From the IMG/VR virus record IMGVR_UViG_3300045988_163663: 11,450 nucleotides of DNA, one strand, 5' to 3'. The translations under genes were made by a program, and so were the position numbers. The notes below the pieces were generated by a model, which saw only the letters and a list, made by a program, of their open reading frames with translations, was not told the DNA's origin and made no database searches. The DNA comes from a virus. The first letter of the stretch is position 1, and every line of letters begins with the position of its first letter. Of the stretch, positions 384 through 11,182 are shown piece by piece.

Positions 384-777
384 AGATGAATTTAATAAAC
401 TTATAAATAAAATGGCTGCTTCTTGGGGTAGCTTTGGTATTTCAGCTGAAGAAGCTGGAAAAGCTATTAATGATTTAATAACTAAACTTGATGAATTTAA
501 TAAAATAGCTCCTTGTGATGCCTATGAAATTAGGGGCGGTAGAGGCAACAAAAAAATGGCTATGCTCCGGCCAAGAGCAGGCGTAGAGACCGAAAGCTCA
601 AATCGAAAATATGATTTAGAAATTTTTGATGAAAATGGTGATAGTAGATTAAAAATGCCATTTGATGAAGATTATGTTTATATTATTCCAACAGCTCAAG
701 AAAAACCAATGAAGGTAGTCTTTGAAAATGATGAATTTATATGGAAAGGAGAAGTAAATCCCATTGATACTAACTGA
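364..777 (+). CDS. Hypothetical protein of 137 aa. The start is uncertain: in-frame ATGs at 307, 334 and 349 are also possible if the TAG at 358 is read as Q.
   Basis: A protein-like ORF ending at TGA 775-777 followed directly by TAA. No strong SD. Contains an unusually GC-rich R/G-rich patch at 530-600. No recognisable domain. Confidence 0.4.
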   Translation: MNTSFNEDEFNKLINKMAASWGSFGISAEEAGKAINDLITKLDEFNKIAPCDAYEIRGGRGNKKMAMLRPRAGVETESSNRKYDLEIFDENGDSRLKMPFDEDYVYIIPTAQEKPMKVVFENDEFIWKGEVNPIDTN

Positions 778-1956
778 TAAATAGAATGCTGGATTGAAAA
801 TTGCCGTAGCCAGATACAAGAGCCGTGAACCTTATACTTGTATTGCTGGCTATGCTTAACTGGAACGGGCAAATCTACATTAGTAAAATTTATAGTTCAA
901 TCATTGAATTTAAATCCTGAAACTGATGTAGCATATGTAGCTTATACTGGTAAAGCAGCCACTGTTCTTCAAACAAAAGGATGTCCTAATGCAACAACAG
1001 CACACAAGTTATTATATGAAGCTAAACCAAGATCCAATGGTACATTTTATTTAAAAAAAAGATGGCCTATTCCATATAAAGTAATTATTGTAGATGAAAT
1101 ATCAATGTTGCCTAAAACAATGTGGGATTTGCTTCTTTCACATCATAAATATGTAATTGCTTGTGGTGATCCATTTTAGCTTCCACCAGTAGACCCAAAT
1201 GAAAATAATCATGTTTTGGATAAGCCGCATATCTTTTTAGATGAAATTATGCGACAGGCCCAAGATAGTGAAATTATTAGATTATCTATGTGGGTACGAG
1301 AAGGTAAGCCCCTTGGGCAATTCCCAGTAGCTAAAGAATAGGTCTAGATTTTAAGGCCATATGAATTAATTCCAGAAATGTATGATTGGGCAGATCAAAC
1401 TTTATGTGCTTCTAATAAAAGACGTATTGAAATTAATAATAAAGTTCGAGAGCGACAAGGGCGAGGAGCTACTCCAGAAATAGGAGATAAAATTATAGGA
1501 TTAACTAACCATTGGGATTTTACATCTACTGATGGTTTATGGCCTTTAACTAATGGATGTATTGGAACGATTACTAATTATCAAATTATTCCATATAATT
1601 ATCCAAGCTTTATTTATAATAAACAACTCCAATATATGTTTACGGGGATGGATATACCCAATGGAAGATTTGAATCTATACCTATTGATTATGACGCTTT
1701 AATTACAGGTACTCCAGCCTTTGATAATAAGCAAGCATTTAGAATGAATAGTTTTGCTAGAAATACTGATGCATTAGAAGCTCCTTATTATTTTGCTTAT
1801 GCTTATGCAATAACTGTTTGGAAAGCTCAAGGTAGTGAATGGGATAAAGTGTTATTAATTGAAGAAGCCCATCCTTTTGATACATTAGAACATTAGAAAT
1901 ATTTATATACTGGCATTACAAGAGCCAGTGAAAAATTAGTAGTTATAAGGAAATAA
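764..1956 (+). CDS. SF1B Dda/RecD-like DNA helicase. It contains 5 in-frame TAG codons read as Gln and an apparent -1 frameshift at about 856-858 within the Walker A motif.
   Basis: TTG at 764 (AGGAG at 747-751) opens a frame reading ILTDK-Q-NAGLKIAVARYKSREPYTCIAGYA (TAG at 782), which ends at TAA 857-859. The protein continues in frame +1 from 838/859 as (L)TGTGKSTL (Walker A). Downstream motifs are DEISML (II), GDPF-TAG-LPPV = GDPFQLPPV (III, TAG at 1177), IMRQAQ (IV), VWKAQGSEWD (V) and, after the TAG at 1894, YTGITRA (VI). TAGs at 1339 and 1345 are also in frame. The gene ends at TAA 1954-1956. Confidence 0.8.
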
Positions 1957-1959
1957 TAT

Positions 1960-2559
1960 ATGAATGTATTAAGCATAGATTTTGATATTATTATGGCACC
2001 AAGTATTAATTTATATAATAATATGGTTCCTGGGACTAATTGGGATGATTTATTAAAAAGTTTACCCAATCTTACAACAACTCCTGCTGATTTAAACATT
2101 TATTCTAATATACTTAGATATTTATTACGGACTATAGATAAAACAACTTCTATTTATATTTCTTATGGTCATAATAAAATAAAAGAATATTTACAATATG
2201 ATTATGATTTAAATATAACTAATATAGATCATCATCATGATATTTTTTATAATCCTAAAGACGCAGAAAATAAATTGTGTGATTGTAGTTGTGCTGATTG
2301 GGTTAAATATTTCTATGATTAGAATAAATTAAAAAGTTATACTTGGGTTCATAATAATAATTCTTGGAATCCTAATTATGAAGTACCTTTTGAATATAAC
2401 AAAATACCATTTAAAGAATTTAAATTTGCTAATTCTTATGATAAATATTTTATCTGTTTATCTCCAGAATGGGTTCCACCTTATTATCATAGTTTATTTT
2501 ATACTCTTTTGGACTGTTTAAATGAAAAAAATAATTATCATTTGGAGATTATAGAATAA
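1960..2559 (+). CDS. Hypothetical protein of 199 aa with one in-frame TAG (2320-2322).
   Basis: ATG at 1960 lies 3 nt after the helicase stop. The ORF 1960..2322 continues past the TAG to TAA 2557-2559 as ...KYFYD-Q-NKLKSYTWVHNNNSW...HLEIIE. No recognisable domain. Confidence 0.55.
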
Positions 2560-8961: not shown

Positions 8962-9856
8962 CAATGACCCCCGCACCTATTTTTCTACGATAAACAAATC
9001 TGTCGCTTAATACAGTAATGTATTTTGAAAAACCTATCTAAACACGGAAAATCCTTATTAAAGGATAACCGAGTGCTAAATTTCTACTTGCCTATATTTG
9101 CTCGATTTGGGAGGTAAATATATGGAAATCTGGAAAGATATAAAAGATTATGAAGGTTATTATTAGATTAGTTCTTACGGTCAAGTGAAAAGCCTTCTCA
9201 CTAACAAAATTTTAGTAGGTGATACAAATAGTTTAGGATATCGAAGAGTTACTTTGTATGCTCCTATTAAAAAACGTTTTTTTATTCATCGGCTTGTTGC
9301 TTTACATTTTTGTAAAGGTTATCAAGAAAATTTAATTGTAAATCATAAAGACGGAGATAAAACCAATAATAAAGTTGAAAATTTAGAGTGGGTTACTCGC
9401 TCTGAAAATGATTTACATGCCTACAAAAATAATTTAAGAAAATCTTATCCTTGTCAATTTAAACATAAAATTATCGCTTATAATTTAACAACTGGTGAAA
9501 TTGTTAAAATTTATAACAATGCTGATAGTTGTGCTAAAGATTTAAAAGTTGCTCGTACCAATATCTATAATTGTTGTAATAAAAAGCAAAAAAGTTGTAG
9601 AGGATTTGGATTAAGATATGATAAATAAAAAATAATAGTGTAAGTAGAATAAAAGCTAAACGACTATCGAAAATATAATAAAAGAGAAAAACTTTTATGA
9701 ATAAATGAGTAGAGTAGCTTCAAGTGAAGCGAAAAGATAGGATTCCTATAAAGGTTAAAACAATATAGGAATATGATATAGTCTGAACTTATATAGTAAT
9801 ATATAGCAGTTTTTTATAAACGATATAAGATTAACGACCTTATATGAACATATTTG
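8962..9856 (+). mobile_element. Group I self-splicing intron in nrdD carrying an HNH homing endonuclease gene (boundaries within about 30 nt).
   Basis: R-like element AAACGACTATCG (about 9657-9668) and S-like element GATATAGTCTGAAC (9775-9788) form P7. P9-like hairpin with GNRA loop ATATA-GTAA-TATAT (9791-9804). P4/P5-like ACACGG / ATCCTT-ATTA-AAGGAT / CCGAGT at 9042-9076. Splicing ...GAC AT(8961)|G(9857) GGA TGC AGA creates the M-G-C-R-T motif (T4 PMGC290RS thiyl-radical Cys). The last exon nucleotide is U and the last intron nucleotide is G. Confidence 0.75.
9122..9628 (+). CDS. Intron-encoded NUMOD4 + HNH homing endonuclease, 168 aa with one in-frame TAG.
   Basis: GGGAGG SD 8 nt upstream of ATG 9122. 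MEIWKDIKDYEGYY-Q-ISSYGQVKS is the NUMOD4 signature (TAG at 9164). HNH motif HRLVALHFCKG...VNHKDGDKTNNKVENLEWVTRSEN. Ends at TAA 9626-9628. Confidence 0.85.
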
Positions 9857-10838
9857 GGGATGCAGAACAGCCAATGGATACGATATTAACGGTTTTGGTT
9901 AGCTAAAAGATGGCCGTGGTAATATTTGTCCAGTAACTATTATTCTTCCTACTTTAGCTATGATTGCTAAAAAAGAATGTGAAGAAGAAGGGCAAGAAGA
10001 AGATATTATTCCAGTATTTATGGCTTTATTAAATAGAAAAATTAATGAAGCTCGCATTCAATTAATGGAGCGTTTTGATTGGATTTGCTCTCAAGATCCT
10101 AAGTCTGCTAAATTTATGTATGAAAATAATTTAATGGCTGGCTATATTCCAGAAGAAGGAATTAGAAGTGCCCTTAAGCATGGCACATTAGCCATTGGAC
10201 AAATTGGTTTAGCAGAAACTCTTTAGATTCTTATTGGTAAAGACCATACAACTAAAGAAGGTATGGAATTAGCGAAACGAATTGAACAAATGTTTAAAGA
10301 TTACTGTGCAAAAGCAAAAGAACAATTTAAACTTAATTTTGGAGTTTATTACACTCCTGCTGAAAATTTATGCTATACGGCAATGACTAAATTCAAAGAG
10401 AAATATGGTATTATCCCTAATGTGTCTGACAAAGAATTCTTCACTAACAGTATTCATGTTCCCGTTTGGAAAAAAATGTCATCTTTTGATAAGATTGACA
10501 TTGAGAGCCAATTGACTGGTTATTCTTCTGCTGGATGTATCACATATGTAGAGTTAGATTCTACTGTAAAACACAATATTGATGCTCTTGAACAAATTGT
10601 TAATTATGCTATGGATAAGGATATTCCTTATTTCGCAGTAAATGTGCCTAATGATACTTGTCTTGATTGTGGATATTGTGATGAATTTAATGATAAATGC
10701 CCAGAATGCGGTAGTACTAACATTCAACAATTACGTCGTGTAACTGGTTATTTAACTGGTAATTATAAGACTGCTTTTAATTATGGCAAACAAAAAGAAG
10801 TAGAAGCACGAGTAAAGCATACGGGGTAGATGGAATGA
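9857..10838 (+). CDS. nrdD: NrdD exon 2: catalytic Cys loop, C-terminal Zn-ribbon and glycyl-radical domain. TAGs at 9900 and 10224. The stop is TGA 10836-10838, or TAG 10827-10829 if that TAG terminates.
   Basis: (M)GCRTANGYDINGFG-Q-LKDGRGNICPVTIILPTLA is collinear with T4 MGCRSFL...DGRNNLGVVTLNLPRIA. YYTPAENLCYTAMTKFKEKYG is collinear with YSTPAENLCYRFCKLDTEKYG. Four-Cys ribbon CLDCGYC...CPECGS. Glycyl-radical region RRVTGYLTG...EARVKH is collinear with RRTCGYLG...HRVKHQ. Confidence 0.85.
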
Positions 10839-11182
10839 TACGTTCAATTTATGACTTAGCTAATTATTTTAATTAGGAAGAAGGAAGAAAATATCCTTGT
10901 TCTAATTAGATAGTAATATGTGCTTATATAACAAATAACTCACAAGAAGTTTATGATTATTTGAATAAAAATAATATTACACCAATCAGAATATCAAAAA
11001 CTTATATAGAATGGCAAGAAAATAATGAACAATGGATATGGACTCCAATAAAACATAACGTTAGAGGGTATAGATTTAATAAGGTAAAAATATCTAAAAA
11101 TTATGATAATGAAGAAATGTTAGAACAAGTAATTATACCTTGCTGTGATTTATATTGTTGTTCTTGGGAGGTTATAGAATGA
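10835..11182 (+). CDS. Hypothetical protein of 115 aa under TAG=Gln (2 in-frame TAGs). The standard-code version is 10961..11182, 73 aa with a TTG start.
   Basis: ATG 10835 overlaps the nrdD TGA (ATGA). Translation: MIRSIYDLANYFN-Q-EEGRKYPCSN-Q-IVICAYITNNSQEVYDYLNKNNITPIRISK...CCDLYCCSWEVIE. The stop TGA 11180-11182 overlaps the nrdG ATG (ATGA). Confidence 0.4.

What the first reader, a model, noticed from the sequence alone, without database searches (positions are those of the whole stretch)
764..11182. TAG stop codon reassigned to a sense codon (Gln, code-15-like) across the window
At least 20 in-frame TAGs fall inside otherwise uninterrupted, homology-supported genes, at positions where homologues carry Gln or a polar residue. 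Examples: helicase motif III GDPF-TAG-LPPV (invariant Q of GDxxQLPPV); NUMOD4 YEGYY-TAG-ISSYG; NrdD LAL-TAG-STAQRLYPN (T4 has E) and AETL-TAG-ILIG (T4 has N); ATP-cone YLM-TAG-SERRD. Reading through joins ORF fragments into full-length helicase, NrdD and HNH proteins. TAA and TGA still terminate.
Basis: partly seen in the sequence, partly recalled or inferred. Interest (0 to 1): 0.85.

Follow-up and report, generated by a model that had tools for sequence, protein, structure and literature searches.

The report
Gut phage reads TAG as glutamine
This stretch of a ~188-kb human-gut phage genome really does use the stop codon TAG as a glutamine codon in many, but not all, of its genes; this kind of recoding is already documented in gut phages, so the main finding is a solid new example rather than a new phenomenon.

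Summary
Nine genes in the window carry 22 in-frame TAGs (23 if one ORF starts at 334). They carry no in-frame TGA, and every gene ends in TAA or TGA. Alignments to solved helicase and NrdD structures run straight through the TAG positions. The invariant motif III glutamine (GDxxQLPPV) is a TAG. Between strains of the same phage, TAG exchanges mainly with CAA. A standard-code relative (Thomasclavelia phage TR-TP2) has Gln at three of four alignable TAG sites. All 15 same-species genome loci retrieved at the tRNA cluster, about 42 kb away, encode a tRNA with anticodon CUA, in one of three unrelated versions. The window's own contig could not be fetched at that site.

The recoding is patchy. DnaE (1,326 codons), the guanylate kinase, NrdG and the lysozyme have no TAG.

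NrdD also needs an 865-nt HNH-carrying group I-type intron (8992-9856) removed. The helicase also has a 5-nt coding gap (TAACT, 857-861) inside its Walker A motif.

That gap recurs at the same codon boundary, 5-8 nt long, in 64 viral contigs and is linked to an upstream HNH endonuclease gene. It looks like a natural short translational hop and is the most novel item here.

The parts
3..383 (+). 3' part of a Phage_lysozyme2-like gene. No TAG; ends in TGA.
334..777 (+). ORF of unknown function, starting at ATG 334 or 364. TAG at 358 is in frame only with the 334 start. Ends TGA, followed by TAA.
764..856 (+). Helicase N-terminal segment, (M)ILTDK-Q-NAGLKIAVARYKSREPYTCIAGYA, with a TTG start. The in-frame TAG at 782 is CAA in strain L002 and aligns to Q in T4 Dda.
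857..861 (+). 5-nt coding gap TAACT (stop codon TAA plus CT) inside the Walker A coding sequence. It lies between take-off codon GCT (854-856) and resume codon GGA (862-864). Skipping it restores the canonical IAGYAGTGKST.
862..1956 (+). Helicase core (SF1B, RecD/Dda-like: AAA_30, UvrD_C_2). In-frame TAGs at 1177 (motif III Q), 1339, 1345 and 1894. Ends in TAA.
1960..2559 (+). ORF of 199 aa, unknown function. TAG at 2320 (CAA in strain L009). Ends in TAA.
2559..2750 (+). ORF of 63 aa, Q-rich. TAGs at 2583, 2688 and 2733. Its start overlaps the upstream stop (TAATG).
2818..6798 (+). DnaE-type DNA polymerase III alpha (PHP, DNA_pol3_alpha, finger and HHH_6 domains). 1,326 codons, 58 CAA/CAG and zero TAG.
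6788..7051 (+). ORF of 87 aa with four TAGs (6818, 6881, 6971, 7022), all conserved in seven strains. Its ATG start lies 11 nt inside the end of dnaE, and its TGA stop overlaps the guanylate-kinase start as ATGA.
7048..7617 (+). Guanylate-kinase-like gene. No TAG.
7709..8991 (+). NrdD exon 1 (ATP-cone plus the N-terminal part of NRDD). TAGs at 7802, 7925 and 8891.
8992..9856 (+). 865-nt intervening sequence, a group I-type intron. It is exactly absent from intron-less alleles. The 5' exon ends in U and the intron ends in G. There is a partial Rfam Intron_gpI match at 9744-9804.
9122..9628 (+). Intron-encoded NUMOD4/HNH_3 homing endonuclease. The TAG at 9164 is CAA (Q) in the 74%-identical TR-TP2 homologue.
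9857..10838 (+). NrdD exon 2 (glycyl-radical domain). TAGs at 9900, 10224 and 10827. Ends in TGA, which overlaps the next ATG.
10835..11182 (+). ORF of 115 aa. TAGs at 10874 and 10907. ATGA overlaps at both ends.
11179..11450 (+). 5' part of NrdG (the activating radical-SAM enzyme). No TAG in 90 codons.

Best explanation
The window comes from a ~188-kb tailed phage of the human gut. The phage decodes TAG as glutamine through its own amber-suppressor tRNA (anticodon CUA), while TAA and TGA remain stops (code-15-like). Genes without TAG can be translated by the unmodified host machinery: DnaE, guanylate kinase, NrdG and lysozyme in the window, and gyrase, ligase and RNase H nearby. Genes with TAG give full-length protein only once the suppressor tRNA is present: RecJ, helicase, NrdD, the intron HNH, several small ORFs and, most heavily, the tail genes. 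So the recoding probably also acts as a timing switch. Shown: the in-frame TAGs, their Gln equivalence, the lack of TAG terminators, and tRNA(CUA) genes in same-species genomes. Inferred: charging of that tRNA with Gln, the temporal switch, and how host RF1 is overcome.
For: - 22 in-frame TAG against 0 TGA and 0 TAA in 3,647 codons.
- Coverage by long ORFs rises from 0.62 to 0.90 with TAG as sense, against 0.66 with TGA as sense.
- 0 of 27 genes end in TAG.
- Alignments to PDB helicases and NrdDs are continuous through the TAGs, and motif III Q is a TAG.
- Pfam NRDD matches as one stretch, profile positions 2-562 of 562, and AAA_30 as one stretch.
- Strain comparison: where another sequence differs at a window TAG, the codon is CAA in 22 of 28 cases (19 strains, 3 TR-TP2). 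Where another strain has TAG, the window has CAA in 35 of 48 cases.
- Standard-code phage TR-TP2 has CAA at 9164, 9900 and 10224.
- tRNA(CUA) is present at one conserved locus in 15 of 15 same-species genome loci retrieved there. These include the 188,474-bp contig that is 95.4% identical to the window locus.
- The sense tRNA nearest to supA is tRNA-Gln(CUG).
- TAG use is heterogeneous: DnaE has 0 TAG among 58 Gln-type codons, against 22 TAG and 57 CAA/CAG in the TAG-bearing genes (Fisher p = 1.7e-6).
- The phenomenon is published, with metaproteomic proof in other gut phages (PMC9523058).
Against: - No tRNA lies in the window or within 10 kb of it.
- The tRNA locus of the window's own contig could not be fetched.
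- Aminoacylation of the CUA tRNAs with Gln is not shown. Many Firmicutes lack GlnRS (my own knowledge).
- At poorly conserved TAG sites, distant homologues carry K, E, S, D, V or N rather than Q.
- No release-factor gene turned up in 4.3 Mb of fetched loci, which include an estimated 100 kb or so of this species' genome.
Confidence: 0.93

Rival explanations
1. TAG is a sense codon, but for an amino acid other than Gln, such as pyrrolysine, Tyr, Lys, Glu, Leu or Ser.
For: ARAGORN labels the CUA tRNAs 'Pyl' by default. Distant homologues carry K or E at several TAG sites. Charging identity was not tested.
Against: The invariant motif III Gln is a TAG. TAG exchanges overwhelmingly with CAA, which takes two nucleotide changes. 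TR-TP2 has Q at 3 of 4 sites. TAGs sit in Q-rich runs such as SSqqQqP. supA is a normal cloverleaf with a GG D-loop and a TTCGA T-loop. Its closest sense tRNA is tRNA-Gln, not the atypical tRNA-Pyl.
Confidence: 0.04
2. The host itself reads TAG as sense, so the phage simply mirrors the host code and there is no phage-imposed switch.
For: The host is unknown, and hosts with altered codes do exist for TGA.
Against: A large subset of genes is completely TAG-free, including 1,326-codon DnaE, gyrase and ligase. The phage carries its own tRNA(CUA). Close family members, and the relative TR-TP2 of Thomasclavelia ramosa, use the standard code. [quoted passage not shown]
Confidence: 0.02
3. The TAG-interrupted genes are pseudogenes, assembly or sequencing artefacts, or truly split genes.
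For: Under code 11 the genes fall into fragments.
Against: The same TAGs recur in 10 or more independent assemblies. dN/dS is 0.06-0.19 across TAG-containing helicase alleles. Only TAG interrupts the frames, never TGA. Start and stop overlaps (ATGA) tie the read-through ORFs to their neighbours.
Confidence: 0.01

Closest known systems
TAG-to-Gln (genetic code 15) recoded gut phages: crAss-like, Lak, and the Jade, Sapphire and Agate clades of Borges et al. (bioRxiv 10.1101/2021.08.26.457843); the Phass-1 group (PMC10607447); proteomic validation in PMC9523058
   Same: Human-gut origin and a genome of about 190 kb, within the size range given for Jade, Sapphire and Agate. In-frame TAG equals Gln. 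The phage encodes tRNA(CUA). Only part of the gene set is recoded, most heavily the structural genes, and use in replication genes is variable. A recoded stop codon also sits inside an intron homing-endonuclease gene, as reported for Agate.
   Different: Membership of a named clade was not established because no terminase tree was built. DnaE is only 38% identical to Phass-1. Strains of one species carry three unrelated tRNA(CUA) genes at the same site. No RF2 was found. 18 of 27 local genes are recoded, more than the 26% clade mean quoted for Sapphire.
Phage group I introns carrying homing endonucleases in nucleotide-metabolism genes: T4 nrdD/sunY, td and nrdB (from my own knowledge) and the NrdD-HNH arrangement of Thomasclavelia phage TR-TP2 (PQ571310)
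   Same: The intron sits in nrdD just before the MGCR motif. It holds a free-standing HNH ORF. Intron-less and GIY-YIG-occupied alleles exist in the same population. The TR-TP2 intron and ORF are 76% identical in nucleotide sequence.
   Different: The catalytic core gives only a partial, sub-threshold Rfam match (27.5 bits against a cut-off of 50). The endonuclease ORF contains a recoded TAG.
T4 gene 60 / mobA translational-bypass cassette (bioRxiv 10.1101/2022.08.31.505936) and the synthetic 'stop-hops' of Weiss et al. 1987 (as reviewed in PMC5009743)
   Same: A stop codon directly follows the take-off codon. A matching or near-matching landing triplet lies just before the resume codon. An HNH endonuclease gene lies immediately upstream. 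The cassette is often retained after the endonuclease is lost. The insert sits in a highly conserved coding site.
   Different: The gap is only 5-8 nt, not 50. The target is a helicase Walker A motif, not a topoisomerase. No take-off hairpin or nascent-peptide signal was demonstrated. The mechanism is untested. The review states that no natural in-frame stop hop is known.

Membership tests
Code-15-type (TAG to Gln) recoded phage | Multiple in-frame TAGs inside conserved genes, with homology continuing across them | tested here: met
   22 TAGs in 9 genes. PDB and Pfam alignments are continuous across them.
Code-15-type (TAG to Gln) recoded phage | TAG is not used as a terminator, while TAA and TGA are | tested here: met
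   0 of 27 genes end in TAG. In the 28-entry listing of the locus, where NrdD counts as two pieces, 22 entries end in TAA and 6 in TGA.
Code-15-type (TAG to Gln) recoded phage | TAG positions correspond to Gln in homologues | tested here: met
   The motif III Q and the Dda Q align to TAG. TAG exchanges with CAA in 22 of 28 and 35 of 48 comparisons. TR-TP2 has Q at 3 of 4 sites. Variable sites show other polar residues.
Code-15-type (TAG to Gln) recoded phage | The genome encodes a suppressor tRNA with anticodon CUA | tested here: inconclusive
   A tRNA(CUA) is present in 15 of 15 same-species loci (supA, supB or supC). The window's own contig could not be fetched at that site.
Code-15-type (TAG to Gln) recoded phage | A subset of genes stays compatible with the standard code (presumed early genes) | tested here: met
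   DnaE, guanylate kinase, NrdG, lysozyme, gyrase, ligase and RNase H all have 0 TAG.
Code-15-type (TAG to Gln) recoded phage | Phage RF2 or another means of countering RF1 | tested here: inconclusive
   No GGQ-domain hit in 4.3 Mb of fetched loci, but only about half of this genome was seen.
Code-15-type (TAG to Gln) recoded phage | Gln is incorporated at UAG in the protein | not testable with these tools
   This needs proteomics.
Group I intron with homing endonuclease | Precise absence from otherwise collinear alleles, with the exons joining in frame | tested here: met
   Intron-less alleles are L005, L007, L010 and L011. Joining 8991 to 9857 gives FSTMGCRT and raises the NrdD alignment score.
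Group I intron with homing endonuclease | U at the end of the 5' exon and G at the end of the intron | tested here: met
   U8991 and G9856.
Group I intron with homing endonuclease | Conserved catalytic core (P3-P9) recognised by a covariance model | tested here: inconclusive
   Rfam Intron_gpI matches only model positions 160-251, at 27.5 bits against a gathering score of 50 (E = 9e-5 in the local search). There was no hit in the whole-window scan.
Group I intron with homing endonuclease | Endonuclease ORF inside the intron | tested here: met
   NUMOD4 and HNH_3 both score above their Pfam cut-offs.
Gene-60-type translational bypass / stop-hop | Take-off codon immediately followed by a stop codon | tested here: met
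   GCY followed by TAA or TGA in all 25 interrupted family alleles, which were found without constraining the gap sequence. The 64 IMG/VR contigs also all fit, but there the search pattern itself required TAA or TGA.
Gene-60-type translational bypass / stop-hop | Landing codon matching the take-off tRNA | tested here: inconclusive
   The landing triplet is GCN in 12 of 20 gap variants of 6-8 nt. The others are one transition away (GTN or ACY). The window's variant is ACT.
Gene-60-type translational bypass / stop-hop | Both ORF halves kept under purifying selection | tested here: met
   Both halves stay open in all alleles. dN/dS of the downstream half is 0.06-0.19 between interrupted alleles.
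Gene-60-type translational bypass / stop-hop | Link to a homing endonuclease cassette | tested here: met
   An endonuclease ORF lies upstream of 10 of 25 interrupted alleles and 0 of 42 uninterrupted ones, and upstream of 23 of 51 pattern loci. HNH_2 scores above its cut-off. The endonuclease is absent from the window's lineage.
Gene-60-type translational bypass / stop-hop | A 50-nt gap with a take-off stem-loop and a nascent-peptide signal | tested here: not met
   The gap is 5-8 nt, and the folds show no consistent hairpin.
Gene-60-type translational bypass / stop-hop | A single polypeptide spanning the gap | not testable with these tools
   This needs a junction peptide or a reporter assay.

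The most novel reading that the evidence does not exclude
Inside the finding's coordinates, the TAA at 857 is not a gene end. It would be the start of a 5-nt coding gap in the helicase Walker A motif that ribosomes skip. Peptidyl-tRNA-Ala would leave GCU and re-pair 5-8 nt downstream, restoring GYAGTGKST. The gap would be the immunity scar of an HNH homing-endonuclease cassette that spreads among these phages. If so, this is a natural short 'stop-hop' family seen in at least 64 viral contigs and a second, independent counterpart of the T4 mobA/gene 60 cassette.
Probability: 0.45. Interest if true: 0.8.

Novelty: new member of a known kind. Interest (0 to 1): 0.4.

Why it matters
For annotation: this phage family must be called with TAG as Gln. 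Otherwise RecJ, the helicase, NrdD and the tail genes are fragmented.

For biology: it adds a well-resolved case where replication and nucleotide-metabolism genes are split between TAG-free and TAG-dependent sets. That makes the proposed code switch as a timing device testable within a single module. It also shows that strains of one species carry three unrelated suppressor tRNAs at one site. This suggests the suppressor is a replaceable, contested part.

The helicase coding gap, if it is translated across, would be the first natural family of short stop-hops. It would also be a second example of a homing endonuclease travelling with a recoding signal.

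Tried and rejected
- Rfam over the whole window found nothing. The intron core appeared only in a local, permissive search.
- A megablast search of GenBank phage records found only the NrdD-intron region of TR-TP1 and TR-TP2. By DnaE protein search the nearest records are about 38% identical: SPbeta-like phages, Enterococcus phages and Phass-1.
- Walking out from the window gave no tRNA in the first ~70 kb examined. The tRNA cluster was then reached.
- Attempts to fetch the tRNA locus of the window's own contig failed. I tried look-ups of P0014, P0022 and P0142 and two homologue searches.
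- A release-factor search was negative.
- Pyrrolysine was rejected (see rival explanations).
- For the helicase gap, a single frameshift class was rejected because gap lengths of 5, 6, 7 and 8 nt fall in all three frames. Re-pairing of tRNA-Ala after a -1 or +2 shift has no support in the sequence. Internal re-initiation was rejected because several variants have no in-frame start codon (L018/L019, L088).
- Folding gave no consistent take-off hairpin.
- My first splice junction (8988/9857) was one codon short. I corrected it to 8991/9857.

Full report
**Source and context.** The window (GC about 0.30) is 100% identical to positions 70,073-81,522 of a 188,486-bp human-gut metagenome contig (ENA ERZ28621461, OBRE15-1 scaffold_6). 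Nine other assemblies of the same region (79-99% identical) come from contigs of 19-188 kb, four of them 182-188 kb. IMG/VR holds a large family of related contigs, the longest about 190-200 kb. An IMG/VR contig of 188,474 bp is 95.4% identical over the shared locus, and its ends overlap, so the genome is complete. All genes in the window lie on the + strand.

**The observation.** Under code 11 the helicase, NrdD, the HNH gene and several small ORFs fall apart. With TAG read as sense they join into long ORFs.

- I count 22 in-frame TAGs in nine genes. The count is 23 if the ORF before the helicase starts at 334.
- In 3,647 coding codons there is no internal TGA. There is no internal TAA apart from the helicase site discussed below.
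- The two non-coding frames of the same stretches hold 174 TAG, 283 TGA and 406 TAA. A 365-codon frame free of TAA/TGA has a chance probability of about 2e-16.
- In the 20.6-kb locus around the window, coverage by ORFs of at least 120 codons rises from 0.62 (code 11) to 0.90 with TAG as sense. With TGA as sense it is only 0.66.
- None of the 27 genes there ends in TAG. In the 28-entry listing, where NrdD counts as two pieces, 22 entries end in TAA and 6 in TGA. 18 of the 27 genes contain TAG.
- ATGA or TAATG overlaps tie the read-through ORFs to their neighbours.

**Homology across the TAGs.** With X at the TAG positions, the helicase aligns to three SF1B helicase structures (9kwf, RecD2 3e1s, T4 Dda 3upu).

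- The motif III TAG (1177) falls on the conserved Q in all three (GDPAQLPPV, GDTDQLPPV, GDNKQIRPV).
- The N-terminal TAG (782) falls on Q of Dda.
- Spliced NrdD aligns end to end with the NrdD structure 8p23 (E = 3e-126) and with T4 NrdD.
- Pfam gives NRDD as one stretch covering profile positions 2-562 of 562. It gives AAA_30 as one stretch across both the helicase gap and the motif III TAG.

**Which amino acid.** Four lines of evidence point to Gln.

1. An invariant Gln is encoded by TAG.
2. Strains of the same phage can be compared codon by codon. Where the window has TAG and another sequence differs, that codon is CAA in 22 of 28 cases (19 strains, 3 TR-TP2). Where another strain has TAG, the window has CAA in 35 of 48 cases. 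TAG to CAA takes two nucleotide changes, so this is selection for the same meaning.
3. Thomasclavelia phage TR-TP2 is an isolated phage annotated with the standard code (its region is 0.73 covered by long ORFs under code 11). It shares the NrdD-HNH-NrdD region at 76% nucleotide identity. It has CAA at the positions of TAG 9164, 9900 and 10224, and AAG at 8891.
4. TAGs occur inside Q-rich runs.

**The decoder.** The window and its 10-kb flanks hold no tRNA. I walked through relatives in IMG/VR and ENA. This located a tRNA cluster about 42 kb upstream of the window-equivalent position.

- The cluster holds Thr, Gln(UUG) and Gly genes, with Pro, Tyr or Leu in some strains.
- Every same-species genome locus retrieved there carries a tRNA with anticodon CUA. 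They come in three unrelated versions at the same site.
- supA: L123, L218, L219, L285, L286.
- supB: L126, L208-L212.
- supC: L124, L284, L287. This one has an atypical T-loop. ARAGORN missed it, and the Rfam tRNA model found it.
- supA has a U1·U72 mismatch and G73. Its nearest sense tRNA in the family is tRNA-Gln(CUG).
- I could not fetch this locus from the window's own contig.
- No release-factor gene was seen.

**Patchiness.** DnaE has 58 CAA/CAG codons and no TAG. The TAG-bearing genes have 22 TAG against 57 CAA/CAG (Fisher p = 1.7e-6).

- Also TAG-free: guanylate kinase, NrdG, lysozyme and, nearby, the primase-like gene, ligase, GyrA, GyrB and RNase H.
- RecJ has 14 TAGs in 581 codons. 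Tail genes reach 61 in 1,962 codons.
- This fits the published model, in which early genes use the host code, late genes need the switch, and replication genes are variably recoded.

1. *NrdD is also split by an 865-nt intervening sequence, 8992-9856.* Intron-less alleles exist, and other alleles carry GIY-YIG ORFs at the same place. The 5' exon ends in U and the intron ends in G. Joining 8991 to 9857 yields FSTMGCRT, matching ATMGCRT and SPMGCRS in the solved structures. Rfam's group I model matches its 3' core only partially (27.5 bits). TAG 9804 lies in the intron and is not coding.
2. *The helicase has a frame break.* It starts at TTG 764 in frame 2 and reads ...CIAGYA. It then meets TAA (857-859) followed by CT, and the P-loop GTGKST continues in frame 1.

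**The helicase gap.** This is not an assembly error.

- All ten strains have it. The divergent strain L002 has GCT TAA GCT GGA, an in-frame version.
- In the wider family, 42 alleles are uninterrupted (...GYA|G[TS]GKST). 25 alleles have a gap of 5, 6, 7 or 8 nt at exactly this boundary, always starting with TAA or TGA.
- A pattern scan of IMG/VR found 64 contigs with 24 distinct gap variants.
- The last three gap bases are GCN in 12 of the 20 variants of 6-8 nt. GCN is the same codon family as the take-off Ala codon. In the rest they are one transition away (GTN or ACY). In 5-nt gaps the first base of that triplet is the last base of the stop codon. That base is always A, so the triplet cannot be GCN; the observed triplets are ACT and ACC.
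- Both halves stay open in all alleles. dN/dS of the downstream half between interrupted alleles is 0.06-0.19. The gene is therefore expressed.
- An HNH (PF13391) or DUF2726 endonuclease ORF sits immediately upstream in 10 of 25 interrupted alleles and 0 of 42 uninterrupted ones. It is found in 23 of 51 pattern loci. The window's lineage has lost it.
- The layout parallels T4 mobA/gene 60 and the synthetic stop-hops, for which the review states that no natural case is known.
- I consider a short hop of peptidyl-tRNA-Ala the best single explanation, but it is untested. No consistent hairpin was found.

**Comparison with what is known, and verdict.** TAG-to-Gln recoding in gut phages is established and has been validated by proteomics. 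This phage is a further member, possibly of one of the named ~150-210-kb clades, which I did not test. The finding is real and well supported, but not new in kind. The helicase gap and the three interchangeable suppressor tRNAs are the parts that deserve follow-up.

Noticed in passing
window 854-864 (GCT TAACT GGA); also L002, L018/19, L031/32/36/38, L048, L054, L062, L083, L088 and L220-L283: The helicase Walker A coding sequence is interrupted by a 5-8 nt gap that begins with TAA or TGA. The gap sits at the same codon boundary in 25 of 67 family alleles and in 64 IMG/VR contigs. Both halves are under purifying selection. The landing triplet is cognate or near-cognate to tRNA-Ala. An HNH endonuclease ORF lies upstream in many lineages. 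This is a candidate natural short translational hop or 'savior indel' cassette.
   Followed up: partly
window 8992-9856 (HNH ORF 9122-9628); L003, L008 (GIY-YIG occupants); L005, L007, L010, L011 (intron-less): NrdD carries a mobile group I-type intron just before the MGCR motif. Alternative endonuclease occupants and empty alleles occur in the same phage population. The same intron and HNH gene are in Thomasclavelia phage TR-TP2.
   Followed up: partly
window 2818-6798, 7048-7617, 11179-11450; L096 6322-10546: DnaE, guanylate kinase, NrdG, GyrB, GyrA, ligase and RNase H have no TAG at all. Neighbouring RecJ, helicase and NrdD do, so the replication module is divided into TAG-free and TAG-dependent genes.
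   Followed up: partly
L219 8254-8328 (supA); L208 451-525 (supB); L284 15066-15140 (supC): Three unrelated tRNA(CUA) genes occupy the same genomic site in different strains of one phage species. supC has a non-canonical T-loop, is missed by ARAGORN, and lies beside a GIY-YIG ORF.
   Followed up: partly
L284 12760-13345 and 15627-15739: A full-length ROOL RNA (321 bits) and a RAGATH-33 RNA (137 bits) lie inside the phage tRNA cluster, next to the suppressor tRNA.
   Followed up: no
L116 97-2580; L202 4430-5566: The phage encodes an 827-aa protein resembling the major vault protein (MVP_shoulder) and an SLH-domain protein. The SLH domain hints at a Firmicutes-type host envelope.
   Followed up: no
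L009 4649-9751; L003/L008/L011 5184-5774: In one strain DnaE itself is split by a NUMOD3 endonuclease ORF. In three strains a GIY-YIG gene sits directly upstream of DnaE. Homing elements are very dense in this module.
   Followed up: no
window 6801-7047 versus L005 and L010: The four-TAG ORF 6788-7051 is missing in two strains. Their DnaE has a different C-terminus and a TAG at the position of window 6772. This is the only DnaE TAG seen in any strain.
   Followed up: no
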